A stretch of 64,000 nt of DNA from assembly GCA_000004985.1 (NCBI GenBank), contig GG738911.1; one strand, given 5' to 3'. This document shows positions 2,457 to 24,657 of this stretch, piece by piece; the stretch's first letter is position 1, and each line of letters starts with the position of its first letter. The notes beneath the pieces were generated by a model. It saw nothing but the letters and a program-made list of their open reading frames with translations. It ran no database searches and was not told where the DNA came from. Source of the stretch: Naegleria gruberi (Eukaryota). The translations under genes and the position numbers were made by a program.

Positions 2457-4377
2457 TTACTTCTTCGTTATCCATTTCTTGTAGCCATCCAAAAACCAAT
2501 CGCTCTGCATGACATCCTCCAATGTCCATCTATTGGCCGAGTTGACTTCCAATAAATGTTCAATTACATATTTGGTCTTTTCCGAAATTCCTTCCTCTTC
2601 CTCAAGTGGAATGTAATAGTTCATTTCAAATTTTTCCTTAGCTGTCTTGAAAGGCAAAAAACCAGTGAGCAGCTTGTAAAGTACAACACCCAAAGCGTAT
2701 ATATCAATTTCCTCTGCATAACACTTTTTGAGCAATAATTCTGGACAGCAATAAGCACCATTACCAACAAATAATCTGTGATATTTCTTGCCCTTCTCGA
2801 ATTTATCTGACAAACCAAAATCAACAATTTTGACATTTCTATCAGCATCCAAACACACATTGGATAATGTTAAATCTCTGTGCAAAATTGACAAAACATT
2901 ATGCATGTGATCAATGGCCATTACCATTTGTACGAAATATCTCTGTACATCGTCTTCATTGTGTTGCTCGTGCTCTTCGAGTGGATTCTCCAGAGCTCCA
3001 TTCTCACAAAACTCAGTCACAATATAAACAAATGTCTTTGTGTGGATTCTCCTTAATTATTTTCATAATTTCCACTTCTCTTTGGGCAAATTCTATTGCT
3101 CCAATTTTATCCATCATTTCAAGATCCAACTCTTTCACAGCAACATTCTTTCCAGTCACTTTATCCAATCCCTTGTAAACTGTACCATAGGTCCCTTTAC
3201 TCAAAATTCTATAAAGTTCAAATTGTTCATTAATGATCATGTAAATATCGGCAGGTTTTAAATTCTTTTCATCCACAATATGATTGCTTGACTTAGGTGT
3301 TGGTGGACTACTATATCTCAAGCAGTATTCAATGACATTCTTCACCACAATAGGTTCTTGCTGAGCAGCATCAAATTGAGCAGTACTTTCACTTGGGGAA
3401 GGGAGCACACTACTCATTGAATATGACGTGATATTTCCAAAACTGGATGAGCAAGTTGTTGTACTATTGGGAGAAGATGGTTGGAAATATGTTGATTTTG
3501 GTGGTGAAAGAGATCGACTAAAAGTGTGTGATTCAGCCAAATGACTACTATCCATAATATTTGTCGTTTCAACAATGTGATCCTCAAATTGTGTTCTACA
3601 AGTAAATTCCTCAAATGTTCTAAAGTTAAATTGTTGTTGCAGATATTCCATCGTGTTTTGAAATTTAGACCACAACTCTGAATTGTAATATGTAAAATTA
3701 TCATAACAAACAAAACAATCCATCTGATATTGTTGCTGTTGTCTCAGTGATGATGAAGATGAAGTGGCTGGAAAGTAGAGTTTTCCATTCTTATCCTTTC
3801 GATGTTTTTGTGCTGTTTGTAAAATTGTTCTCATATGAGATCCAATACTTTCCTGCAATACTTGCTGTACTGTATTAACATCTTGAAGACTTCGTAGAGT
3901 AACTCCTGATAAATCTACCAACAGAAGCATTCTCTCCTTTATGAATTTAACTCTCTCCTGCAAAAGTGATTCCGTAACAAAGTATGATGATTTGGAAGCT
4001 GCAGTTCCTCCTCCTCCACCACCACCACCATCATCTGCTCCACCACCTGTTCCTTCTATTATATAAAGATGATGATCATTACCATTTACCAATCCAAAAG
4101 TACTGTTTGGTTTTTTAGAAGCCTTTGATTTTGCTGATGGTGAAGCAAGTGACGAAATGGATGGAAAACTAAACGACCTCAACAAGGGAGAGGATTCAGA
4201 TGATGATGAATCATACGACCTCGATACAGCAGCTGCTACTTTTGAAGCCGAACTAGGATATAAACAAGTAAAATCGATGGAAGTAAGTTTGGGTGTTGGT
4301 CGAAAAATTGAATTTTCCTTCGTTGGTGTTTTTGTTTCTTCGGAACGACCTAATGATGATGATGATGAATTTATCAT
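2457..4377 (-). CDS. Ser/Thr protein kinase with Ser-rich N-terminal region; reading frame broken by 1-nt shift at about 3013-3020
   Basis: ORF 3013..4377 carries Gly-loop (LSKGTYGTVYKG), VAVK; ORF 2457..3020 continues with subdomain V-XI (FVYIVTEFCENG, HRDLTLSNV, DFG, CCPE). The two ORFs overlap by 8 nt in different frames with no GT..AG possible, so a frameshift at a T-run (gacatttgtttat). Confidence 0.7.
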
Positions 4378-6862: not shown

Positions 6863-8055
6863 ATGGTGCGTACTTTTAAATCAAAGTGATTGATCATCAA
6901 ATCGTTAATAAATTATTCTAGGAAACATGTAAAATCTCTCCCCAGGCTTCCTCGTCATCAGTTGATAACAATGATGAAAATTTTGAAAGTAGGCTCAAGA
7001 AGAGGAAGATCAATCCCGAAGAGGCCAAACAAGAAGAAACAAAGTTAACAAGTGAAGAGGTTGATAACTTGTTTGCCAAGTTGGGAAAGAAATTAAAATC
7101 GAAAATACCTGTTGCCTTTTCTTTGGATTTTGAATATGTGCAAACAAAGGGAGACAAGTTTAATACTCCTGAGAAGATGAATGCTCCTCTTGATGTGAAG
7201 ATTTCATATAGAAATGAGATTATTTTAGTATCGGATAGTGTGAATGGAAGAATAATGGTATTTGATTTGAATAGTGGTCTGTACAAATCTGATTTTTTCA
7301 CAGAGTTGGCTCCTTGGCAATTCGTATTGGAAGAAAATTATGATGGGGAAAAGAATGAAGCACTCATTTGCTCAACAGGTAACAATTATCTCAAATATGA
7401 TTTGTTACAATTGCTCAAGTCTGATAGATCACGTAGAGCTACACCCATTTGGAAGACCAAATTTGAAAGATTTAGCTGCTTTCAATGCTGTGCTATCAAG
7501 TATGAAACGAGTGGAAATACCTTGTATTGTTGCAATAGTGCAACTGATACCATTGTTGTCTACTCTTGTGCTAATGGGTCTGTAGTGAAGAAGATTACTC
7601 AAGCTGTTTCGTTTGAGATCCCAAATGACCCTATCAATTATTCATTCGCTAGACCTGTTGGTATAGATTATAATTTCAATTCTGGAGCTCATGAATTTGT
7701 CTTGGCAATGATGGGAGAGAGTGTTTTCTATATCAGAGAAAGTCCTGATGGTACTTGGGTGGTGAGAAATGAATTGGAAACTACTGTAGTTCAAGATGGA
7801 AGCGAGAAAACAATTTTAGATATGCCATGTGCTGCATTAATAGATAGAAATAACCATAATGTCATAATTTGCTCGTATGGAACAAGTTCAATGGCTGTTT
7901 TCAATAAGGAGGGAACATTTATTAAATCATTTGGTGCAAGAGGAAGGAATGAAAATAATAGATTTATGGATCAGACAAGTTGCTGTCTTAATGAAATCAC
8001 TGGTGAGCTACTCATTGTAGACTCACACAATAATCGTGTACAAATTTACAAATGA
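6863..8055 (+). CDS. NHL-repeat beta-propeller protein (robust ORF 7069..8055; hypothesised ATG-only exon 1 at 6863..6865 spliced to 6922)
   Basis: ORF ends in NHL-type blades (GRIMVFDL, LLIVDSHNNRVQIY). The in-frame ORF extends upstream to 6922 without an ATG. ATG|GTGCGT at 6863 plus TCTAG acceptor at 6921 (56-nt intron) would provide the start. Alternative start is ATG 7177. Confidence 0.55.
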
Positions 8056-11212: not shown

Positions 11213-11302
11213 NNNNNNNNNNNNNNNNNNNNNNNNNNNNNNNNNNNNNNNNNNNNNNNNNNNNNNNNNNNNNNNNNNNNNNNNNNNNNNNNNNNNNNNN
11301 NN
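11213..11302. other. assembly gap (90 N) in the 5-prime flank of the OYE gene
   Basis: Run of n characters in the sequence. Confidence 0.99.
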
Positions 11303-11722
11303 GTTATATTCTTGGATGTTAATAATGCCCATTTTCCAATTTTAATTCTAATAACAACGAAAACCCCAAGAAAACAAACAAAAACTTTAAATTCTAAACG
11401 AAAGTCTTCTTTCAACTTTTTCAAGGTTAACAACAATAACTACAACTACATGAGCTTGATAACTACAGTTTGTAATCTTTACAGAGGCGGACAAATACAA
11501 CCAAGTAACACATTGCTCATAAAGGTGTTTCATTTGAAGAATATTGTCAAAATAATAGAAGCAAATATGCTACTTGATGTGACAGAACTTTCAATATTGT
11601 GAGGGAGAGGACAGAATAGCATATCTCTATAATTTCTGTCTTGCTTTAATTGAAAGAAATGCCAAATTATTTCAATAAAATCTAATTATATTAAAATTGA
11701 AAAAGTTAAAATTAAAGATTAT

Positions 11723-14700
11723 TTATTTAAAATAATCGAATTTGAGTAATTGTTGGGCAGTTGGACGAGTTTCTCGATTCTTATCCAACATTTGTAAAAT
11801 TAATTGAATTAGTTCATTGGAGTAGGAAATTGAACAGTTTCTCATTTGTTTAGTGAGGATGGTTTGAGCATTTGATGATTGATTTCCCATTAATAAATTA
11901 CTGATTGAAGTTGTTTCGTCTTTGGTCATGATTTGATAAATTGAAACTCCCAAAGAAAAGATATCCGTGTTGAAAGAGTATGAGCTTCCCAGGGCGATTT
12001 CAGGACTAAAAATTCATGTGAATTTAATGAGAATTGATAATACTTACCTCATGAAGAGAGGAGTTCCAACATATGATTGACCTTTCATTTCTTGATGCTT
12101 TTTTGCCAATCCAAAATCTGCAATTACTATTTCGATATTATCATTCTTCAAATATTTGACAAAAATGTTGGATGGTTTGATATCTCTATAATATTATTTA
12201 GTTTAACCGATATTTCTTTTGAAACGTACCTATGAATAATTGATAGTTGAGAATGAATATAATTCAAACCTTCGCATGATTGTTTCAGTATTTGCTTAAT
12301 AATATTTTCAGAACATTCTCTTTTCAAAAATTGATTCAAATCACCACTTTCATAATAATCCATGTCAATACACAGTAAACTATCTTGGGTTATGAAATAA
12401 TCATTGACTTTCAAAATGTTTGGATGTTTGATGTGGCTTAATTGGGAGGCTTCTTTCATTATTGTATTTAAATCAGAGAATGATTCAAACTTGATTACCT
12501 TAACTGCCTTGATTCGATTTCCTGCTTTTGAATCATTAGCTTTATAGACACTTCCAAATGCACCTTGTCCAATCCTTTCTATATTAGTATATCTTGAAAA
12601 GTAATCTTCAGAATTAGAAGCAGCTGATCCGGCTGAAGAGGTAATAATTGTTGATCCAGTTGGGAAATCAGACAACTCAATATTTGAAGTGTTGATACTT
12701 GCAATATCTTTTCCTTTGTTCTTTTTTTTCTTGGAAAGACAAACAATTATTACAATTACCACAATAACAATAATCACCAAAATTAGAAAACTTGCAACTA
12801 TTGGGATAGTAATTGAAACAATTAAAACAGTGGAGGTATCTATGGAATTTGTTGGAACTACTTGCTCACAATATTGGCCTTTGAATCCTCCTTTACAAGA
12901 GCAAATATTGAAATCTGAGCAGTAACCATTTCCATTACATACTGATAAATCTGATGCAAGTGTTCCATTACAAGAGAGGGACTCACATTTAGATCCATAA
13001 TATCCTTTCAAGCATTCACAGCTTTGGTTTTGAGAGTTGAATATTGCATTTCCCACACATGAAACACTCAATTTTCGTATTGTGGTTTTAGTCATTGTAA
13101 TGAACTGACTAAGTACTAAATCACTATCAATGAAATAAACCTCTTCTGTGTTTTCATTATAGCCAATAGATGGCGAGAAACCCATAAATTTAGTGTCTTT
13201 CCCAGAAAGATTGCCTGAGTAAACGTTAATATTTTCGTTAGCACTTCCTGCTAGTGTTGTCAACAGTCCAGTTGTTCTAGTGTATTTTCGTATTATGTAC
13301 GAACCATCCAAAATAATAATATCTCCATTCTTTTTAACATAAAAGGATATTGGAGATGATAGTGAAGATTCTAAGGCTGGTAGATTATTTCCTGAATAAC
13401 CAGTCTTACCATTTCCAATAATTGTTCTCAGATAATAAGTTCCATTTGCCATCTTTTCAATTACCCTTAATAGTGTACTTGTGCAATAATAGATGGAATC
13501 CTCATTAGAGGAGTAAGAGAAGAGAATAGTACCAAAATTGGTAAAATTGGTAACTGGACCATCTGGAGAGTATGAAGAAGTTACATTGGAGGCAAATCGA
13601 GTCACAATCATTCCTGTCCTTTTTTCAAGTTTACGAAAACTTGTACTGTCCGAAAGGTAGATATCTCCATTTTCTGGATTGACAGACAATCCTTTGATTG
13701 CAATGTTTCTAAATCGTGTGTCCAAAGCTGGACCATCTGTAACTGCACCACAACCATTTCCTGCAATTTTGGTTACATTCATAGTATCCAAAAAAACTTG
13801 TACAATATGGCACACATCTACAATGAATAATGAATTATCAAAGGAAGAGTGAGCCATTGTTAATATAGATTCCGAAACTAAGAAAAAGAATGGAATTTGG
13901 CCCATTGTAGGACTCGTACCCTTTACACTCTCCGTTTGGGAAATAATTTCACCAGATGTTTCATTAAACTTCTTCAAAGAAAATCTATCCAAATAATATA
14001 TTACATTATTGGCCTCATCTCTTGCAAATGCAGATGTAATTTTACCAACTTTTCTGGAGGGGTTGATGCCAACAATTGTTTGTGTGGTAGCATTTGAGAT
14101 TGTAATGTAGGATGCAAAGGCACTGTTGTAAATTGCTCCATTGATTACTTTTATACTGCCTGATTGTCTGCAACAATATTTTAGTAAATTAATTGTTACA
14201 CAACTTACAATAAAGACTTTGATAAACTAACATTCTCTCCACTGTATCCACTGAAGTGCAGAATATATTTCCTGAATTGTTATACGAATCTGCTCCTCCA
14301 ATTTTTATGAGCTGGGAATCATTCAATCTCATTTCATAAACTTTGGCTTGAAGCATTAAATATATTTTGTCGTTGTCACATGAAAAACTTTGAAATGAAT
14401 TATCAGATGAATAAACTGTTTCATAAACTGAGAGTTCCGCCAAATTAATCTTCATTATTTTAGAATAAGAAACTAAGAAATAAACACTATAGTTTCCATT
14501 TTGGTTTACAATACATGAAGAAGTAATTGGGGGAATATTGTAAATTTGTGATTGTTCTCCATTTCTGTATATAGTTATGAAATTTGGAGAGGAAAAAAGC
14601 AAGGTACCATTTGATAAAGAATTCCCTATTCCACTAATTGAAGTGATACCGGTTGGGATGTTCAATGAAGAAAGTTGCTCTGTATAAATATTAAATAAGA

Positions 14701-15812
14701 ATACATCTGTGGAAGTGACAATTACCATATCTCCATTTGGGAATATATAAGTGTTGGTTACTATACCAATATACTTCCTCTTCGGTGAGTTTTCTATTTG
14801 TAATTTGGAATAACTCCCCAAAACAGTTTTGACCAATCCATTAGAAACCTTTCTGACAATACTACTGGTTTCTATGAAAAATAGTTCATTCTTGAACGAA
14901 AACGGGTAAGAAAGTGAAGATGTTGGACTTGTTTCGAATTGTTGAATATTTTCTCCATATGGATGATTGATGACTCCTCCAGAAAATGTGGAAACCACCT
15001 TGGTTCTTGTATCAATTTTTCTAATACAGTTATTTGTCTGGTCAACTAGGTAAACTATAGAATTTTTCAAAACCAAAGAGGAGGGGTTATAAAATAGAAC
15101 TTTCGAGTAAGAATCAATCAGATCATCTCCTTCATATCCATAGAGGTCTTGCTGTCCAATGAAAGTTGATTGTACTGCTGATCCAACAGATTTCATTTGA
15201 ACAAAATGCGAAGAAGGTGAAGTTGTCCAAATTTCATTTGATGATGTTACAAATATTCCATATCTTGATAATTAATGGAGTGAATAAACTGTTTAAAATC
15301 TTCACTTACAAATTTGATTGAGGACTCAAACCGTCAACAACTCTGTACTTTCCATTGCTATCAATACGTTTCACCCTTTCCTCATCTGTGAAATAAACCG
15401 TATCCTCTTTGCCATTGGAAACAACGTGAATATTCTTTGGAGATTTCATAATGACTGAATTGGCATCCACATTATCATAACTTCCATCCAAATATGCTTT
15501 TTCACCGCCAATAGTCGAAAGTACCCTTGTTGAAATGTCATACTTTTTGATGAGGTTGTTTTGTGTATCTGCAATGTAAAGAATATTATTCGAAGAAACA
15601 ACAATTCCCAATGGTTTGTTAAATGTAGCAGAGATGGAAGAAACTAGTCCTGTTGAAGCAGAAACTATTCTAATCTTATTGTTTTGAGTATCAGCTATAT
15701 ACAAATCACCGTTTGGAGAAACACTAAGAGATGAAGGAGTATTAAATAGAGTTTCTTTTGCATGATATCCATCACTGAAACCAGCTGTTCCCAATCCTCC
15801 AAAAACTACCAT
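11723..15812 (-). CDS. receptor-like Ser/Thr kinase #1: NHL-repeat ectodomain + EGF-like Cys repeats + TM + kinase; at least 5 exons
   Basis: complement(join(11723..12005,12048..12185,12230..14159,14209..15263,15310..15812)). NHL blades occur in ORFs 15306..15812 and 14189..15196. EGF-like CxCxxGxxGxxC; TM IVSITIPIVASFLILVIIVIVVIVIIV; kinase GQGAFGSVYKA, KAVK, HRDIKPSN (across 44-nt intron), DFG, GTPLFMSPE (across 42-nt intron). All junctions phase-checked against the ORF track. Confidence 0.75.
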
Positions 15813-16130
15813 GCTCTCATTCTTGAACCCGTATCCAAATTTCGTCTCGCCAAAGTGTTAATGGTTTAACAAAATAAAACACATTTGGTTATGTTGTGTT
15901 TAAAAGTGTGTTAGAAGAAGTAAAATTAAATTCCTTTTGTTTTGTCCTTCCGAAACAAAGATTGTTTATTACATAATAAATTGATTGTTTTGATTTTCGA
16001 AATGATGAAAGTATTGTTTAACAATAGTAATTTAGATCGAACCAAACAAAAGGATCTTTATTTAGTCTCCACTATAAATTATTCCGAAAAGACCAAACAA
16101 AGCCAATACTGTTACTGTGAAAACAAGAGG

Positions 16131-16300
16131 GCACCATTATAAATATTTATCACGGTTGCTTCATACATCACCACAGCCACCATTATAAATATTCATCACA
16201 GTTGCCACCATTATAAATATTTATCATGGTTGCTTTAAATTACAGTGCCCACCAATATAAATATTCATCACAGAACCCACCAATCATTATTACCACAAAC
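16131..16300 (+). repeat. tandem array (4-5 copies, 28-45 bp) of direct repeat CCACCATTATAAATATT(C/T)ATCAC(A/G)GTTG just upstream of the Ulp-like gene
   Basis: Directly visible copies at about 16131, 16177, 16206, 16250; each contains TATAAATA; last copy about 40 bp before ATG 16313. Confidence 0.7.
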
Positions 16301-16312
16301 CATTAAAAACAA

Positions 16313-18608
16313 ATGCCACCAAAAATACAACCTCCTACATGGTCGGAGAATGATAGAACAAACATAAAACAAATGTTTGATGCTTTTAAAAACAAATCTA
16401 TCCCTGAAAATGTTGATTTAATGAATTATGGTAGATATATTGCAAATAACTATTTAAATAGTAAAATTGTATTAGGAAATTTAAATACAAACAAAAGTAA
16501 CACGTGGAAAGAATGGGAAAAAAAAGGTTATTTAAATGATTTAGAATACTTCTATAATAATTTACAAGTGAAATACTATTTAACAAATATTAAACTATCA
16601 CCTACTAATAATCCGATTGTTGGAAATAATTATTTGATCGGAAAGGAAGTACAAGTAGATCCTAAAAAGTTATTATTTAAATCTACAACAACCAAAACTA
16701 TTAGATTAGGAAAAGGTATTTTAAGTACAATTAATGAAAATAATTATTCTATGAAAGATATTATTTATAGTACTAAATATAAAGAATGTTTTAATGAAAC
16801 AAATAGTTCATTAGATATTCCTAAACATTTGCTTTTTGAAATACCAATTGATTCTAACAAATCTACTCCAATATCAAAATGTCAAACTAAAACAGATTTA
16901 AATTTACAATCAATCAAACAATCATTCCCTCCATTATCAAGCGAAGTTGAAGAAAGTAATGTTTTTGATAATAAGGAATTAAAAATTAAAGAATTATTAA
17001 TAGATTCAACTAATGATGATGATGATAATTTGTTCGATATGGATTTAGTTTCAGAAATCTTGAAAAACAAAACAAAACCTCCATCAACTCCACCATCAAC
17101 AAAACTACCCACAACTTCTCCACCAACAACTCCACTAACAATTACTCCAACAATACCACCAACTCCACTAACAATTACTCCAACATTAGATTCTCTATTA
17201 CAAATTGCCACACCAGTAATTTTAAAAGGAGAAGAAAAAAAAAGAAAATTCGATGATTATGAAAATGATGAACAAAATGAAAAGGTTTTAAAAAGATATA
17301 TAAAATCATTAGAAGAAAAAATTAATAAGTTAGAAAAGAAAATAGAAAAAAAATCCAAAATTATTGAAAATCTTATGGAAAATCAAAACAATTCCAAGAA
17401 AGTATCAGAAATTGAATATATTATACAACAAACTAAACCTATTGCCGAAAATATTATTAATAATTCTAAAATAGTACAAAATTTTATTGGTGATGTTAAT
17501 GAATTATTAAGTCAAACACATAATTGTAAACCTGTTATTATAATGGAAAAGAAAAACAAAATTATTTTATCAGATGAGGAGAAAAATAATTACTTAAAAA
17601 TGATTACTTATCATAATGATAAATCAGTAACGTTTAATTTGGATAGTATATTAGGTAAACAAATAAGAATTTCTGAAAGCCAATATCAACAATTATTAAA
17701 TAGAGGAAATTTAAAATCTGGATTTACAAAAAACTTATTTTTGGAATTTTTTAAATTAAAATCTTCAGATTTAACAGAAGAACAAATTGAAAAGGTTTTT
17801 AGATTCTTGGCTATAATTAAACCAATAACTTTTGATAAAAAAAGATTTAAAAAAGATAGGAAAAATTTGGAAAAGAAAAAAACAAAAAACGATGATGATG
17901 ATTTTGAAGAAAATGAAATAACAAAAGATATTAATAATTCTGATAATGAAAAATTTGAAATATCAGATAATAATGTTAATCAATATGATCTTACAAATAA
18001 TTTAGAATGTATGTATTAATAATTTAATGTTAAATTTTTTAGTTTTATTTATAAATAGAGAAAGAAATATGATTATGAATAATGAATGGTTAAACGGAGA
18101 TATAATGGATAAATATTTACATATTTTACAATTACAATTCCCTTTTCTTCATTTAACAAAATGTTCTCAAAGTATTTATTTTTTGGATACTGTTTTACGT
18201 ATTATTAAAAGTGCAGAAAAAATAATAGATTATTCAAAACTTAATTTTGTTACACTCAATATACCAGGTACACATTGGTTGTTATTATGTATTAGTAAGA
18301 TTAAATCAATTGTTTATATGGACATTATTGATTCTAAAATTGATTTATTATGTGACAATCTTAAAAAAATGTTAATTAAATCATTCACACAAAACTTTTT
18401 ACCAGAAAATTGTGAATTAGTTTTAAGAAATATCAAATGTAAACAACAATCAAATGGATTTGATTGTGGATTATATGTGTTATCATTTATCCGTCAAATA
18501 GGTCAATCAAATATTGAAAATTTTAATCTTAGTAATATCAATTTTGAAAATACATTGATTATAACAAGAAACGAAATGGCTGAACAGATTAAACCAAATG
18601 GTAATTAA
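16313..18608 (+). CDS. Ulp1/SENP-like (C48, clan CE) cysteine protease with long low-complexity/Pro-Thr-rich/coiled-coil N-terminal region
   Basis: ORF 18027..18608 has catalytic signature: H in GTHWLLL, D in YMDIIDS, Q..C in QQSNGFDCGLYVLSF; domain start WLNGDIMDKYL. ORF 16313..18019 (568 aa) is in an adjacent frame. A 34-nt GTATGT..TTTTAG element (18009..18042) would join them in frame; alternatively a frameshift or two ORFs. Coding DNA is visibly AT-richer than neighbouring genes. Confidence 0.6.
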
Positions 18609-18690
18609 ATAAAGCTTCATTATTTTATGTTTTTATTAAATAATCAATTAACAAAAGTAATTTAGAAGAACTAAACAAAACCTATTTATA

Positions 18691-18790
18691 GCCACCATTA
18701 TAAATATTCATCACAGTTGTTAATTACAGTATATACGGTTAACGCTTACAACGACAACTTCAAGGGCACCATTTATTAATATTTGGCGCC
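18691..18790 (+). repeat. two further copies of the same TATAAATATT-containing repeat downstream of the Ulp-like gene
   Basis: GCCACCATTATAAATATTCATCACAGTTGTTAATTACAGT at 18691 and degenerate GGGCACCATTTATTAATATTTGGCGCC at about 18765. Confidence 0.6.
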
Positions 18791-19413
18791 AATATTAATT
18801 AAAAAAAACAACCATACAACACACTTGGCTTATAATTGGAGGTGATATGTTGTATTAATATTCTTACAACTTTTAATACAACCAATAAGTTATTATTATA
18901 TTATAATTTAATATTTGTTTTAGTATTAATGGTAGTTAGATTATTAAAATTAGAAGAATAATAAAGAATAAATAGATTAAATATTCCCGATTTAGTCATT
19001 CGTGTAAGACATGAATTGATTTGTAATATATAAAACTAATCTCTCTCTTTACTTCTTGTAAGTAATTTATATTGGAATTTAAATTCAATTATTGTAGTTA
19101 ATTGTGTGGAAATGGAAGAAATGTGAGGAAATTTAGTATGAATATTGATGATCTTATCTTTTTGAAGATGATGGAAATAATGATGATAGTAATTAAGAAA
19201 ATATTTTAAATGATATAGTAGTGATGAAGATAACGATGGAAATAATAATGAAGTTGGAATAATATATCACATGTTTCCCTCTGCGGAATACTTTTTACCA
19301 TTCAGAACTTTATATCTGCTTAATCCAATTATGAAATTTTCTTAATCTAAACATTAATAAACATTCTTCTCGAGTTTAACAAAATTGACTTTGTGCATCA
19401 AAATCATCTATGT

Positions 19414-19599
19414 TTCGTTGGTCCAAACTATCTTTATATTTTAGACAAAACCATATTGGTTTGGTTAGTCAAAACTATTTTGGTTTGATTGGTCCAAACA
19501 ATCTTCGTTTAGTTAGTAAAAACCATGTTGGTTTGGTTAGTCGGACCGGTGTTGGTTTTGTTGGTCCAAACAATATTTGTTTTGTCAAACAAAACAAAC
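19414..19599 (+). repeat. 24-bp minisatellite (about 7 units), each unit an imperfect palindrome TTGGTTTG-NNNNN-TCCAAACAA
   Basis: Units ttcgttggtccaaactatctttat / ttggtttggttagtcaaaactatt / ttggtttgattggtccaaacaatc / ttcgtttagttagtaaaaaccatg / ttggtttggttagtcggaccggtg / ttggttttgttggtccaaacaata / tttgttttgtcaaacaaaacaaac. Period 24 keeps an 8-codon frame (ORF 19410..19700). Confidence 0.75.
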
Positions 19600-19678
19600 T
19601 CGGCTTCACAAATGGCAAACCAAATTTATTTATTTTAAATTGGTCCATCCGTTTTTTGTTTTGTGCGGAGCGATTTCC

Positions 19679-19993
19679 TCATTTTAGATCGACAAAATAA
19701 AGGACCGTCCTGACACTAGGGAATATTCTGAATATCAGATGTCTTTCACAATCAGATACGTACATGTCCTCTTCCATGCCAAAACAAATACCGCATGGGG
19801 TTTTGAGATAGGCATACTTGGCATCAAACATAGTCAGCATGTCATGACCGCTGGCAGTGTTTCCAATCAATGTTTGCACTTTATAATCGAGTGCATGTAC
19901 GAACAATGATGGAGATGTATCTTGTAGGAGTAACATGCTGCTGACACATGTCAACAACAGCAAACAATGGATTGTTACAAAGGGCGTGGACAT
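19679..19993 (-). CDS. small ORF with N-terminal signal peptide (possible first exon of a secreted protein)
   Basis: MSTPFVTIHCLLLLTCVSSMLLLQ followed by hydrophilic region; no downstream exons identified. Confidence 0.3.
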   Translation of the reverse strand: MSTPFVTIHCLLLLTCVSSMLLLQDTSPSLFVHALDYKVQTLIGNTASGHDMLTMFDAKYAYLKTPCGICFGMEEDMYVSDCERHLIFRIFPSVRTVLYFVDLK

Positions 19994-20371: not shown

Positions 20372-23300
20372 TCATTTCGAAAGTGCTTGAATTCTCTGGA
20401 GTATTTGTGAAGGACTAATTCTACTGGCAGGATCATATCGTATCATTTCCCACAATAAATCACAACAGAGTTCAAATACCTCCCCTTGGTACTTCACTTT
20501 CTTACTAAATTGAACAATGGCAGGGAGAAGAACTTTCGTATCGGCCTCATCATTTCCTTGCTTGACTCTCAGCAATACAGATGCATAATCTCCTGAAAGC
20601 AGTTGATAAACTATGCATCCTAAACTCCAAATATCACTTGGTGGTCCGAATTCTCCCTTAATAATTGCTTCTGGAGCACTGTATTGTAATGTACCTTCGT
20701 AGGCAGTGAGATTGGAACGATGTTGATGTCTTGATGATCCCCAATCACCGACACACAATAAAAAATCATTATTCCATTCCAAGATGGATTTTGATGAAGA
20801 TTGAGGGTTTTCTGGAGCTTTTGCAATGAAAATATTGGTTTGTTTCAAATCTCTGTGGACCATTCCTTTTGAATGGAGATAGTCGAGAGCAGATGCTATT
20901 TGCTTGATAATTTCCAAAACTAATTCTATTGGAATTTGATTTTGATGGGTGTGAATCCAATTTCTCAAATCACACTTGTACAATGGCATGATGATACAAA
21001 TGAATAAACTATTCTCGACCATTGTACAACCTAAAATTGGTACTATGAAAGGATTGGATTCCTCACTCAATTCATACATATTTACAACTTCCTTAAATTC
21101 ACTTCCAAATGGATTGGTAACTTCAATCTGTTTCACAGCAAATAATTCATCAGTTGTAATCTCTTTAAAAATAAATACAGATCCATAAGCTCCACTTCCT
21201 AATTTCTTAACTAGTACATATTCCTTTTCACGAATTCTGAAATGATTTCTTGATGATAAAAGGTTTGGTGAGCTCGTTGAGGCAAGAGGACTGCTGATTG
21301 ATTTACTATTGCCAGGTAAATCTCTTGGATGATTTTCGACCTCATCAATGGTTTGAAGAGATACTGCTGTCTTATTGGTTGATGAATCTATTGAACTAAT
21401 TGTTTCAGGTTCTGAACGATAAACAAATGATGGTAAAAGACTCTTCTTTTCTGGATCTTGGTTTTTGTTTCTTCTAAACTTTTTAAAATAGACAAATACA
21501 CCAATACCTATGAGTGCTGATGAGATGCAAAGGAGAATAATACTAACAACAATTGCTGCAGCTGTTCCATTTCCAGAATCAATATCTTGACAAAATTTTC
21601 CACTATACCCATCATCGCATTGACATTTTGTTGAGTTTTGATTGGAAGCATTTTGACTGAGGACACAAAGACCATTAGATGAACACCTTTTGGTTGAGTT
21701 TTGAGATGGGTTATTTGAGGACGGATCACAATCCAACCAAGAACATGTTTCTCCAAAATAAAAAGGAAAACACGAACACTTATTGAATGAGACACAAACT
21801 CCTTGATCATTGCATCCACTAGTTCTCAATTTTCCAAAGCAGTAAGGTAATGAACAATCATTACCTCCATATTCTGAATTACATTTGCATGTGTTATTAG
21901 AAATGCATGAACCATGAGGTTGACAATTATTAACACCATCACAATTATATTGTGTGCATAGTTGACCTTCCCATCCACTATCACATTTACAAGTATTGTT
22001 GGAAATACATTTACCATTCGAGTTGCAACAGGTTGAATCATTTGCCAATTTCCCAAAACATATTGGAATGTCACAGAGATTTCCAACCCATCCCTCTTCA
22101 CAATCATAAATATTTGGTCCAACACATATTCCATGTTGTGATGGAATATCACAAGAATATGATCCACATTGCTCATTTCCTTTCCATCCACTTTGACACA
22201 AACATGTGTTATTTGAGACACATGTACCGTGTGAATTACACACCAATGAATTATTAGCTATTATTCCAAAACAAACTGGAATATTACACAAATCTCCATA
22301 CCATCCACTGGTACAGGAATACTGATTTGGTCCAATGCAATTCAGTCCATGTGTTGGCTTGGGAACATCACAAGAAAAATTGCTACACATTGAATTACCC
22401 CTCCATCCAGATAGACAGGCGCAACTTCCATTCACACAATCACCATGACCTGAACAAACTTGACCTTGTGAATCAATACACGAGTCAGAGTATCTCATTC
22501 TAATGGTAAAAGAATCGCTATATAGAAGAGCACCTTCTGTAGTTATGGCAACACCATTAGTTCCCTGAATGGCATCAGTTGTAACAGTTGAAATTATTCC
22601 ATCAGTATTAATCTTTCTGATAGCATTATTGCCTTTACAATCGTTAATACTCTCAACTAAAACCAGAAACCTACCTGAATCTGCAATGAAAATAACTCCA
22701 TTTGAGGTGACAGTCACTGCAAGAGGATAGCTTAATTGAGCACTAGTTGCTTGTTTCCCATCTCCTTGATTACCTCTTGTTCCAGTACCTGTTGTTTTCA
22801 TATCATTAACATTTGAGGACTAATTTGAAATATTTTAAGCTTACCTGCAATTACTGAAATAGTTCCTTTCGATAATTTCAAGATTTGATTTCCTCCACTA
22901 TTCGCAATATATAAATCCCCATTAGGAGTATAAAATAAACTTGTCGGATAATTCAACAAGTTCGAGGTAGAAAGTGTTGTAATGGTCTTATCATTATTGA
23001 CCCTCCTAATAATATTCACTCTACTATCTGCAAAGTCGAAGAGGAATTGATCTGCCCACAATGATGGAGGCGCCACGACACCACTAGGTCCAGATAATGT
23101 ACATGAAGTAGCTGGTAATCCATCATTACAATTTCCATTATTGGATGCATATTTTCCTGCAATTGTTGAAATTATTCCAGTATTGTCCACTAATCTAATT
23201 AAGTTATTTGCACTATCTGCAATTAAAAGGCCGAGTGAAATCTTGGCCATAGCTTTTGGCTGATTCAAAAGAGATTGGATTGCTGGAATGCCATCATTGT

Positions 23301-24657
23301 TATAACCAGAATTGGACAAACTACCAGCAATTACATTAGCAAAACCAGTTTTCAAATCAAGTTTTAAAACTGCTGATTGATAGGAAGTAAGGTAGACTTC
23401 ACTATCACTTATGACTTGTAATTGATTCAAGTTTCGTAAAAAAGAGCTTGAAGCTGGTACATTCGGATTAAAAGTATATGGATAGAATCCACTAAAAAGG
23501 AGAGGTGTTTCCAAAGTACGAAAATTAAACTTCATTACTTGGGTTGCTGCCACATTTTGCATGGTTGACTTGAAGTAAATATGATCGTGTGAGTCCCATC
23601 CAAAAAAGTTAATTCCCACAATGTTGTTATCATACAGAACTTTCACCTTTGCCAACTGTTGAGTGGTTTGATTGAATAAAAGTAATTGACCTCCACCAGT
23701 AGAAACAACATAAGATGAATCATAACCCAAACTGATAATATGTAATGGATTTGTAATGGGTGCAAAATTGGCCCAATTATAAACTATTCCATTTGTACTG
23801 AACTGTAATAATCTATTATATCCAGAATCTACAACAATCATTCCATCTGAAGAAAGGGCAATACTTGTTGGATTTGACATTTTACAACTCAAAGGATCAG
23901 CACCATTACAATTACTTGATGATTGAGTATTCACACCTCCCATAATAACCTTACACAGAACACTATTTTCATCAAGAAATGTCATGGTTCTAATAAAATT
24001 ATTCCCACTATCAACAATGTAAAATATTCCATTATATTTTGTAATCATAGTTGGAGCACGAATGGCATTATACATGGCAGGATCATAACTCAAAGAAAGA
24101 GTTCTCAAAATTCCACTTTCCATATCAACAACTCTTATATAACTAGCAAAATTATAGACATCCAATATAAATAGAGAATTTGTCGATTCATCCAAGTAAA
24201 CTCCACTCGGTGATGTCAATGAAAATTCAGTAGCCAATCCACTCAATGATGGTTTATCTTGAGGCACAGAACAAATTCCATTTCCTGCCACAACCACACT
24301 CATATTTCCAATAATCCTTCTCACCACACAAAATTGAATATCCGATAAGTAAATTATTGGCAAACCACTCGAAATATCCAAAGATGATACATGAATATTA
24401 CCTTGTGGTGCTACAATTGGAAAATGGTAGGAATCAATAGTAGTGCCAATACTTCCGGCAACCATAATATTAGCATTAGAATATAGACCAGCAAATTGAT
24501 TCTCCAACTCCTTGGTTGAGTCAATTTCGACTGCAGAAGCTTCTGCTCGAATACTAATGTTGTGATGATCACAGTTGCAAAGTGTGATTACTGCTGTCGT
24601 CGTCGTGAGAAACCCCAAAATGATGCAAAGAAAGAGCTGCAGGAGTGATATCTTCAT
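20372..24657 (-). CDS. receptor-like Ser/Thr kinase #2: signal peptide + NHL-repeat ectodomain + many EGF-like Cys repeats + TM + kinase; 2 exons
   Basis: complement(join(20372..22788,22845..24657)). Signal peptide MKISLLQLFLCIILGFLTTTTAV; NHL blades; repeated CxSGWxGxxC EGF-like modules; TM AAAIVVSIILLCISSALIGIGVFVYF; kinase LGSGAYGSV, AVK, HRDLKQTN, DWG (variant DFG), SAPE. A 56-nt GTAAGC..ACAG intron joins the two ORFs in frame. Confidence 0.8.

What the first reader, a model, noticed from the sequence alone, without database searches (positions are those of the whole stretch)
19410..19700. 24-bp palindromic minisatellite that preserves an octapeptide reading frame
Seven tandem 24-mers (19414-19599) are each an imperfect hairpin (TTGGTTTG ... 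CCAAACAA). Because 24 = 8 codons, the ATG-initiated ORF 19410-19700 reads as degenerate octapeptides (GLVSQNYF, GLIGPNNL, RLVSKNHV, GLVSRTGV, GFVGPNNI, CFVKQNKL). Substitutions between units are frequent yet never introduce stops. The array sits in the island between the receptor-kinase paralogues, next to a signal-peptide mini-ORF on the other strand (19679-19993). It could be a cis-element array (palindromic TF site multimer or origin-like), a hairpin-forming MITE remnant, or a genuine repeat-peptide gene.
Basis: seen in the sequence. Interest (0 to 1): 0.5.

Follow-up and report, generated by a model that had tools for sequence, protein, structure and literature searches.

The report
Non-coding minisatellite inside a strain-specific insertion
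The 24-bp repeat is real, but it is a decayed non-coding minisatellite, not a peptide gene, and it sits near one end of a 3.9-kb AT-rich piece of DNA that has inserted into and split a receptor-kinase gene of the amoeba Naegleria gruberi.

Summary
The window is Naegleria gruberi NEG-M. The tandem array is real. It has about 6 good and 2 decayed 24-bp units at 19417-19607, also readable as a 72-bp trimer x2.6. Lag-24 identity is 63% against 28% in shuffles (z = 10.5), the strongest in the window.

The peptide reading is not supported:
- Only 4 of 27 unit substitutions are synonymous (21% expected).
- The frame stays open by chance in 37% of simulations.
- A 23-bp spacing puts unit 1 out of the repeat's frame.
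- There is no host-like codon signal, no Pfam hit, no homologue and no annotated protein.

The dyad symmetry exists but is weak. Two units have 6-bp stems, one has a 10-bp stem, and fold z-scores run from -0.9 to -2.4.

The main new result is context. A 99.6%-identical metagenome contig joins window 19721 directly to 15827. So 15828-19720 (3893 bp, 24.9% GC, GAA at both junctions) is an insertion, and the array lies 120-300 bp from its right end. The "signal-peptide mini-ORF" is exon 1 of the NHL-EGF-kinase gene that the insertion split. The insertion carries one intact, compositionally foreign gene, NAEGRDRAFT_74150 plus a Ulp1 protease exon. It has no terminal inverted repeats and no other copy was found.

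The array is ordinary. The insertion is mildly interesting.

The parts
19417..19607 (.). 24-bp minisatellite. It has 8 units: 6 well formed and 2 decayed at the edges. It is organised as a 72-bp trimer (A: TTGGTCCAAAC..., B, C) x 2.6. The consensus unit is GTTAGTCAAAACnATnTTGGTTTn.
   Evidence: TRF; repeat families D1-D3; unit alignment A1 with mean column identity 79% and 5 invariant columns; autocorrelation z = 10.5.
19410..19700 (+). Incidental 96-codon ORF across the array. It lies wholly inside the insertion and is not judged to be coding.
   Evidence: ORF list; 4 synonymous against 23 non-synonymous changes and open-frame simulation; codon score; no Pfam hit; no homologue; exact sequence not in the protein collection.
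15828..19720 (.). A 3893-bp AT-rich insertion (24.9% GC). It is present here and absent from a 99.6%-identical N. gruberi contig. No terminal inverted repeats were found.
   Evidence: L001 aligns 1-339 to window 20059-19721 and 337-1304 to 15827-14860; GC content; inverted-terminus tests negative.
15825..15827 (.). Left copy of the 3-bp GAA present at both junctions. It is either a target-site duplication or a junction microhomology.
   Evidence: Junction sequences.
19721..19723 (.). Right copy of the 3-bp GAA.
   Evidence: Junction sequences.
16313..18611 (+). Cargo gene of the insertion. Exon 1 is 16313-18008, which within the ORF 16313-18019 is annotated as NAEGRDRAFT_74150 and has an orphan N-terminal region. 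A 34-nt GTATGT...TAG intron spans 18009-18042. Exon 2, from 18043 to the stop at 18609-18611, encodes a Ulp1/C48 cysteine protease domain with catalytic His, Asp, Gln and Cys intact.
   Evidence: Pfam PF02902 at 42.7 bits against a cutoff of 20.7; alignment to yeast Ulp1 1euv, E = 6.6e-7; in-frame splice; exact match to EFC38071.1; GC 23% and GC3 12-13% against host 34.9% and 28.9%; no homologues of the 568-aa part.
16018..16290 (+). Upstream repeat block of the cargo gene. It holds a 67-bp segment that recurs downstream, and about 5 copies of a 28-bp motif containing TATAAATA (CCACCATTATAAATATTCATCACAGTTG).
   Evidence: TRF rows 16132-16273; blastn pairs; sequence.
18648..18792 (+). Downstream copy of the same block. 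18648-18709 matches 16018-16084 at 79%, and 18690-18719 equals 16175-16204 at 30 of 30 bases. No ORF follows it.
   Evidence: blastn; sequence.
19721..19993 (-). True exon 1 (signal peptide plus first NHL repeat, 91 codons) of the interrupted NHL-EGF-kinase gene. In this allele the frame reads 13 further codons into the insertion and stops at 19679-19681.
   Evidence: P0102 reads ...HLIFRIF|KNESMVVFGG... across the empty site; weak NHL similarity.
11741..15827 (-). Remainder of the interrupted receptor gene: NHL repeats, EGF, transmembrane segment and kinase. An assembly gap of N bases lies close downstream at 11214-11303.
   Evidence: Pfam on 12148-13992; tblastn of P0001; L001 alignment; N run.

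Best explanation
The array is an old, decaying non-coding minisatellite. Its 24-bp unit is built from two roughly inverted 12-bp halves. The unit was first amplified and diverged, and was then re-amplified as a 72-bp trimer by slippage or unequal exchange.

It lies in the 1.1-kb non-coding right arm of a 3893-bp AT-rich DNA segment, 120-300 bp from that segment's end. The segment inserted into the first coding exon of an NHL-EGF-kinase receptor gene in N. gruberi NEG-M.

The 96-codon ORF is a by-product. The consensus unit happens to lack stop codons in three of six frames.

The units differ from each other by 12-40%, while the two alleles of the flanking gene differ by 0.4%. The array was therefore already in its present degenerate state when the segment arrived. 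It travelled as a passenger and did not arise at this locus.

Its only demonstrable effect here is indirect. As part of the insertion it helps truncate the receptor ORF after 91 codons. If that promoter is still active, the array would lie antisense in the trailing untranslated region of the truncated transcript.

Shown: the repeat, the lack of coding signal, the insertion and its boundaries, and the ancestral uninterrupted state.
Inferred: origin by slippage, passenger status, and any transcription.
For: - Repeat structure and trimer order. Edge units are more decayed than central ones (identity matrix), as expected for an array evolving by unequal exchange.
- Non-coding: 4 of 27 substitutions are synonymous against 21% expected. 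P(frame stays open) is 0.37. Codon-position variability is 0.36, 0.20 and 0.25. Codon score is 0.02 against a host value of 0.31. There is a 23-bp spacing between units 1 and 2. No Pfam hit, homologue or annotation was found, and no Rfam family or tRNA.
- Insertion: contig L001 joins 19721 to 15827 with 5 mismatches in 1304 bp.
- L001 is genomic DNA, not cDNA. It keeps the GTAAGT intron that follows ...PQSNL, and the related contig L019 has the same feature. No placement of the 3893-bp segment gives GT...AG ends, so it is not a spliceosomal intron.
- Four related proteins run uninterrupted through the junction, so the uninterrupted state is ancestral.
- Foreign composition of the cargo gene.
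Against: - The dyad symmetry is somewhat stronger than chance (z = -2.3, 0 of 200 shuffles).
- The most conserved columns, GTTT and AAAC, are mutual reverse complements.
- CCAAACAA occurs four times in the insertion against about 0.7 expected, twice just upstream of the cargo gene.
- The array sits subterminally, where many mobile elements keep protein-binding repeats. A cis-acting role is therefore not excluded.
- The codon-score test is weak at this length. The genuine exon 19682-19993 scores only 0.07.
- No transcript data could be consulted.
Confidence: 0.6

Rival explanations
1. The array is a subterminal cis-acting repeat cluster of a mobile element. The dyad-symmetric 24-mers (AAACCA-N3-TGGTTT, TTGG-T-CCAA) would be multimerised binding sites for a protein that recognises the end of the 3.9-kb element. 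That protein could be its own product or a factor supplied in trans. The arrangement would resemble the subterminal repeats of CACTA, hAT or P elements, or the iterons of plasmid and viral origins.
For: - The array is 120-300 bp from the right junction of a demonstrated insertion with a 3-bp duplication.
- The motif occurs in both orientations at a spacing of about 12 bp.
- The conserved columns are GTTT/AAAC.
- The CCAAACAA motif also occurs twice upstream of the cargo gene.
- Folding is mildly better than in shuffles.
Against: - There is no comparable cluster at the left end.
- The apparent inverted similarity of the two ends (score 51) is matched or exceeded by 63 of 1248 real-sequence controls.
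- There are no inverted termini.
- No transposase or recombinase domain is present.
- Only 5 of 24 columns are invariant.
- The cargo gene appears single-copy among annotated N. gruberi proteins.
Confidence: 0.25
2. The array is a genuine repeat-peptide gene. ORF 19410-19700 would encode a 96-aa protein with six degenerate octapeptides (G-L/F-V-S/G-x-N-x-x).
For: An ATG-initiated ORF of 96 codons exists in 33% GC sequence. A copy of the TATA-containing 28-bp motif lies about 700 bp upstream on the same strand, at 18690-18719.
Against: - Synonymous changes are 15%, against 21% expected by chance.
- Third codon positions are not the most variable.
- The frame is broken relative to the repeat at units 1-2.
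- The codon score is indistinguishable from the other five frames.
- By my estimate, about 6 stop-free stretches of at least 96 codons are expected by chance in 64 kb at this base composition.
- No Pfam family, homologue or annotation was found.
Confidence: 0.03
3. The array is a remnant of a small hairpin-forming element (a MITE) or of a dispersed satellite that landed in or next to this segment independently of the 3.9-kb insertion.
For: The array has internal dyad symmetry. Its GC content (33%) is higher than that of the rest of the insertion (25%).
Against: - No inverted termini or duplication bracket the array.
- No other copy exists in 64 kb, even allowing 3 mismatches or using word-7 blastn.
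- The JGI metagenome scan returned only unrelated repeats such as CRISPR arrays and other satellites. IMG/VR returned nothing.
Confidence: 0.07

Closest known systems
Ordinary eukaryotic minisatellites with higher-order repeat structure
   Same: Unit length of 10-100 bp. Degenerate head-to-tail copies. A higher-order (3-unit) period. Edge units more decayed than central ones. Non-coding, AT-rich setting.
   Different: Very short (about 190 bp). Each unit is itself roughly two inverted 12-bp halves. It sits inside a polymorphic insertion rather than in resident intergenic DNA.
Subterminal repeats of CACTA/En-Spm (and hAT, P) DNA transposons
   Same: A short motif repeated in direct and inverted orientation within about 300 bp of an element end. 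The element is flanked by a 3-bp duplication, as in CACTA.
   Different: No CACTA...TAGTG termini and no inverted termini at all. The cluster is at one end only. No transposase is present. The element appears single-copy.
Iterons at plasmid or viral replication origins
   Same: Tandem units of about 20 bp with partial dyad symmetry, next to an AT-rich stretch, in DNA of foreign composition.
   Different: No initiator (Rep) gene. The units are far more diverged than functional iterons. There is no evidence of episomal replication.
Ulp1-protease-carrying mobile DNA (for example Mutator-like elements with Ulp1 domains in plants, Zisupton, and the Polinton/virophage maturation protease). This comparison is from my own knowledge and was not tested here.
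   Same: The cargo gene ends in an intact C48/Ulp1 protease domain.
   Different: No transposase, integrase or capsid gene. The duplication is 3 bp, not the 8-11 bp or 6 bp of those groups. No inverted termini.

Membership tests
Protein-coding tandem-repeat gene | Uninterrupted ORF with start and stop codons covering the repeats | tested here: met
   ORF 19410-19700, 96 aa. Simulation gives a 37% chance for this frame and 58% for any frame to stay open.
Protein-coding tandem-repeat gene | Purifying selection: substitutions between units biased towards synonymous sites and third codon positions | tested here: not met
   4 synonymous against 23 non-synonymous changes, with 21% synonymous expected. 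Variability at codon positions 1, 2 and 3 is 0.36, 0.20 and 0.25.
Protein-coding tandem-repeat gene | All units in one reading register | tested here: not met
   The spacing between units 1 and 2 is 23 bp. Only six units share the frame.
Protein-coding tandem-repeat gene | Host-like codon usage in the claimed frame only | tested here: inconclusive
   The score is 0.019 per codon, against 0.314 +/- 0.067 for host ORFs, and is no better than the array's other frames. A real 104-codon exon scores only 0.068, so the test is weak at this length.
Protein-coding tandem-repeat gene | Homologues, a domain family or an annotated product | tested here: not met
   No Pfam family. No relatives with the chimeric query. 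The exact sequence is not in the 15-billion-protein collection.
Protein-coding tandem-repeat gene | Transcription and translation | not testable with these tools
   No expression data are available here.
MITE / non-autonomous DNA transposon | Terminal inverted repeats | tested here: not met
   The terminal 40 bp show no match. The 200-bp comparison is not above real-sequence controls.
MITE / non-autonomous DNA transposon | Target-site duplication | tested here: inconclusive
   GAA is present at both junctions of the 3.9-kb segment. A 3-bp junction microhomology would look the same. There is no duplication around the array itself.
MITE / non-autonomous DNA transposon | Many dispersed copies | tested here: inconclusive
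   No other copy in the 64-kb window, in JGI metagenomes or in IMG/VR. The N. gruberi genome itself could not be searched.
CACTA/En-Spm transposon | CACTA...TAGTG termini and a transposase | tested here: not met
   The ends are CCCGTATCC... and ...GACACTAGG. No transposase domain was found.
CACTA/En-Spm transposon | Subterminal motif clusters at both ends | tested here: not met
   The motif cluster is at the right end only.
Helitron | 5'-TC and 3'-CTRR ends, inserted between A and T, with no duplication | tested here: not met
   None of the four equivalent boundary placements, on either strand, fits.
Spliceosomal intron (alternative explanation for the 3.9-kb interruption) | GT...AG (or GC-AG / AT-AC) boundaries | tested here: not met
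   The four possible placements start with CCTAGT, CCCTAG, TCCCTA or TTCCCT on the gene strand.
Polymorphic insertion (filled site against empty site) | A near-identical sequence lacking the segment, with precise junctions, and an uninterrupted ancestral state | tested here: met
   L001 is 99.6-99.7% identical on both sides and lacks 15828-19720. Related proteins P0103-P0106 are uninterrupted.
Ulp1/C48 cysteine protease (cargo gene, C-terminal exon) | Family profile above the curated cutoff, and the catalytic His-Asp-(Gln)-Cys residues | tested here: met
   PF02902 scores 42.7 bits against a cutoff of 20.7. THW, YMD and QQSNGFDCG align to SHW, YVD and QQPNGYDCG of yeast Ulp1 1euv.

The most novel reading that the evidence does not exclude
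The 3.9-kb segment may be a member of an undescribed kind of integrating element, or a recent acquisition from an AT-rich virus or virus-like element. It has a 3-bp duplication, no inverted termini, and no recognisable transposase or recombinase. It carries one intact orphan-plus-Ulp1-protease gene preceded by tandem TATA-containing 28-mers. Under this reading the dyad-symmetric 24-bp array is the element's cis-acting recognition or replication site.
Probability: 0.12. Interest if true: 0.55.

Novelty: new member of a known kind. Interest (0 to 1): 0.25.

Why it matters
The array itself adds little. It is one more degenerate minisatellite whose open frame is incidental.

The useful outcome is a correction to the locus annotation. 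The 'island' is a strain- or haplotype-specific insertion that inactivates one member of an NHL-EGF-kinase receptor cluster in the reference strain. The unannotated signal-peptide ORF is the orphaned first exon of that gene. NAEGRDRAFT_74150 is incompletely modelled, because it continues through a 34-nt intron into an intact Ulp1 protease domain.

If the segment proves to be mobile or virus-derived, it would be a tractable example of recent DNA acquisition in a heterolobosean, a group whose mobile elements are poorly catalogued.

Tried and rejected
- Looking up N. gruberi proteins P0001 and P0003 to fetch more of the genome failed. The genome is not in the position index.
- Exact look-ups of the array ORF and the mini-ORF found nothing.
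- A JGI metagenome scan with TTGGTCCAAAC-N59-63-TTGGTCCAAAC gave 16 loci. All were unrelated: CRISPR arrays and other satellites that happen to contain the 11-mer.
- IMG/VR scans for the array pattern and for the 28-bp TATA motif returned nothing.
- A viral search with the Ulp1 domain gave only one weak match of 40 residues, which I disregarded.
- The chimeric protein search found nothing. The exhaustive HMMER search with the 568-aa ORF also found nothing, not even the protein itself. That happened because its 90% cluster is represented by an unrelated 49-aa permease fragment, which is a database artefact. Closer paralogues should still have surfaced.
- An apparent degenerate inverted similarity of the two ends of the insertion beat simple shuffles. 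It failed against real AT-rich window segments and was dropped.
- A possible 10-bp duplication, ACAAAATAAA (15870 and 19691), was rejected once L001 fixed the true junctions.
- Helitron, CACTA and intron boundary models were rejected.
- AlphaFold on residues 1-256 of the cargo protein gave pLDDT 32.5, which is unusable.
- Relaxed Pfam searches on the N-terminal region found nothing credible.
- Rfam and tRNA scans were negative.
- Literature searches found no description of this element, nor of project PRJEB11402.

Full report
**Organism and setting.** The 809-aa ORF at 20372-22801(-) and the ORF upstream of it match the NCBI Naegleria gruberi predicted protein P0001. The match is 100% over exon 1 and 98% over the rest. 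The 568-aa ORF at 16313-18019 is identical to NAEGRDRAFT_74150 on the same 261-kb scaffold. The window is therefore the N. gruberi NEG-M reference. It has a scaffold gap of N bases at 11214-11303. The surrounding genes are ordinary host genes: tubulin, a DDRGK-domain protein, an OYE-type oxidoreductase, LRR proteins and several NHL-EGF-kinase receptors.

**The observation.**
- TRF reports a period-24 array at 19411-19597 (7.8 copies, 66% matches) and 19441-19582 (5.9 copies, 72%). It also reports the same tract as a 72-bp period x 2.6 at 76%.
- Lag-24 self-identity is 0.635 against 0.282 +/- 0.033 in shuffles (z = 10.5). This is the top value of the whole window.
- In register the units are GTTGGTCCAAACTATCTTTATATT, TTTAGACAAAACCATATTGGTTTG, GTTAGTCAAAACTATTTTGGTTTG, and so on. 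The consensus is GTTAGTCAAAACnATnTTGGTTTn, with five invariant columns.
- Every third unit is of the 'TTGGTCCAAAC' type, which explains the trimer period. The outermost units are the most decayed.
- The spacing between units 1 and 2 is 23 bp, not 24.
- Dyad symmetry is present but modest. There are 6-bp stems AAACCA-N3-TGGTTT at two unit junctions, TTGG-T-CCAA in the three A-type units, and one perfect 10-bp stem at 19576-19598.
- Single units fold at -2.4 to -4.5 kcal/mol (z from -0.9 to -2.4). The whole array folds at -28.7 against -21.5 +/- 3.1 kcal/mol (z = -2.3).
- The 96-codon ORF 19410-19700 exists.

**Is it coding?** The consensus unit is stop-free in three of six frames.
At least one frame stays open in 58%.
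- Of the 27 observed substitutions, 4 are synonymous (15%). Random single-base changes would give 21%.
- Variability by codon position is 0.36, 0.20 and 0.25, so it is not concentrated at position 3.
- The 23-bp spacing puts unit 1, which holds the ATG, in a different frame of the repeat.
- A codon log-likelihood trained on 26 long ORFs of the window (taken as host genes) gives 0.019 per codon. Host ORFs give 0.314 +/- 0.067, and the array's other five frames score about the same as the claimed one. The test is weak at about 100 codons, because the genuine exon next door scores only 0.068.
- There is no Pfam family, no protein relative (chimeric query with a candidate cap), no exact entry among 15 billion proteins, no Rfam family and no tRNA.
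- From the base composition, about six stop-free stretches of 96 codons or more are expected by chance in 64 kb. This is my own arithmetic.
- I conclude that the ORF is incidental.

**What the surroundings really are.** I searched with the mini-ORF (19679-19993, minus strand) fused to the next NHL ORF downstream on that strand (15306-15812). This returned P0102, a 244-aa protein from ENA metagenome assembly ERZ929261 that covers both parts contiguously. It reads ...CERHLIFRIF|KNESMVVFGG....
- Its 1304-bp contig L001 aligns 1-339 to window 20059-19721 (1 mismatch) and 337-1304 to 15827-14860 (4 mismatches).
- The empty site reads CTCATTCTT-GAA-TATTCTG. In the window, GAA occurs at both 15825-15827 and 19721-19723, bracketing 3893 bp (15828-19720).
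- L001 is genomic DNA, not spliced cDNA. It retains the non-coding tract that begins with a GTAAGT donor right after ...PQSNL. A related contig, L019, has the same donor at the same place.
- None of the four equivalent placements of the 3893-bp segment has GT...AG ends, so it is not an intron.
- Four further related proteins from the same sample (48-53% identity) run uninterrupted through the junction. The uninterrupted gene is therefore the ancestral state.
The 'signal-peptide mini-ORF' is the first 91 codons of an NHL-EGF-kinase receptor gene (signal peptide plus first NHL repeat). It is followed by 13 codons of read-through into the insertion.

**Anatomy of the insertion.**
- It is 24.9% GC.
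- A 485-bp left arm is followed by one gene on the plus strand. Exon 1 is 16313-18008, a 34-nt GTATGT...TAG intron follows, and exon 2 runs from 18043 to the stop at 18609-18611. Together they give a 753-aa product.
- The N-terminal 565 aa have no Pfam family and no homologue in an exhaustive search of 1.84 billion representatives.
- The C-terminal exon is a Ulp1/C48 protease. PF02902 scores 42.7 bits against a cutoff of 20.7. It aligns to yeast Ulp1 at E = 6.6e-7, with the catalytic His, Asp, Gln and Cys aligned.
- The gene's GC is 23% and its GC3 is 12-13%. The other long ORFs of the window average 34.9 +/- 3.0% and 28.9 +/- 5.1%. The gene is compositionally foreign yet intact.
- It is preceded by about five copies of a 28-bp motif containing TATAAATA (16132-16273). 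A 67-bp segment and a 30-of-30 identical copy of the motif recur just downstream (18648-18719), with no ORF after them.
- The remaining roughly 1 kb of the right arm is ORF-poor. The array lies there, 120-300 bp from the right junction.
- The two ends share no inverted repeat. The terminal 40 bp do not match. A 93-bp inverted similarity that beat shuffles is matched or exceeded by 63 of 1248 comparisons with real window segments.
- The termini do not fit CACTA or Helitron models.
- No second copy of any part of the segment occurs in the window.
- No paralogue of the cargo gene appeared among annotated proteins. The caveat is that its own cluster is hidden behind an unrelated 49-aa representative.

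**Interpretation.** The units of the array differ from each other by 12-40%. The filled and empty alleles differ by about 0.4% in the flanks. The array was therefore already old when the segment inserted. It is part of the donor DNA, not something that grew at this locus.

Several features are what a neutral minisatellite shaped by slippage or unequal exchange looks like:
- decay at the edges;
- a trimer superstructure;
- only five invariant columns;
- no counterpart at the left end;
- no coding signal.

I put this reading at about 0.6. The main rival, at about 0.25, is that the dyad-symmetric units are subterminal protein-binding sites of a mobile element. The points in its favour are position, orientation pattern, conservation of the complementary GTTT/AAAC blocks, and two CCAAACAA motifs upstream of the cargo gene. 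There is no recognisable transposase, no second cluster and no evidence of multiple copies. I put a peptide gene at about 0.03 and an independent MITE or satellite remnant at about 0.07.

**Limits.** The N. gruberi genome outside this window could not be searched, so copy number is unknown. No expression data were available. The identity of the organism in ERR1078381 is unknown. It could be another strain or another haplotype.

**Verdict.** The coding interpretation is wrong. The cis-element idea remains open. The finding is ordinary as a repeat. Its modest value is that it exposes a polymorphic, compositionally foreign insertion that split a receptor-kinase gene in the reference strain.

Noticed in passing
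window 15828-19720: A 3893-bp, 24.9% GC insertion with GAA at both junctions. It is absent from the 99.6%-identical metagenome contig L001 (ERZ929261). It splits an NHL-EGF-kinase receptor gene within its first coding exon.
   Followed up: yes
window 16313-18611 (+): NAEGRDRAFT_74150 is annotated as the 568-aa ORF only. A 34-nt GTATGT...TAG intron (18009-18042) joins it in frame to an intact Ulp1/C48 protease exon. GC3 is 12-13%, far below that of the window's other long ORFs. The N-terminal 565 aa have no detectable relatives.
   Followed up: partly
window 16132-16273 and 18690-18792: A 28-bp motif, CCACCATTATAAATATTCATCACAGTTG, contains TATAAATA. It is repeated about 5 times just upstream of the cargo gene's ATG and occurs again downstream of its stop (30 of 30 identical), with no ORF following. 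It may be a promoter module, or a remnant of a second transcription unit. It has no match in IMG/VR.
   Followed up: partly
window 17071-17185: An in-frame 27/33-bp coding repeat inside the cargo gene encodes a Pro/Thr-rich tract (PPSTPPSTKLPTTSPPTTPLTITPTIPPTPLTITPT).
   Followed up: no
window 11214-11303: A run of N bases (a scaffold gap) lies close downstream of the kinase part of the interrupted receptor gene. It produced a spurious lag-24 signal in my scan.
   Followed up: yes
window 3013-4377, 7069-8055, 11741-15827, 20372-24657: A cluster of NHL / EGF / kinase receptor-like genes lies in one 25-kb stretch. The sample ERZ929261 holds at least five related N-terminal NHL modules (P0102-P0106), all ending at the same GTAAGT donor after ...PQSNL.
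   Followed up: partly
protein collection, cluster of P0201: The 90%-identity cluster holding NAEGRDRAFT_74150 is represented by an unrelated 49-aa amino-acid-permease fragment (P0202). As a result the N. gruberi protein is invisible to the representative-based searches. This is a database artefact that can produce false 'no homologue' results.
   Followed up: yes
L002, L003, L006, L014, L016, L017 (JGI metagenome contigs): The 11-mer TTGGTCCAAAC is the start of a CRISPR-like repeat (TTGGTCCAAACAAACAGAATCCCGACTCAGGGATTGAAAC) in several 53-54% GC contigs. This is unrelated to the Naegleria array.
   Followed up: no
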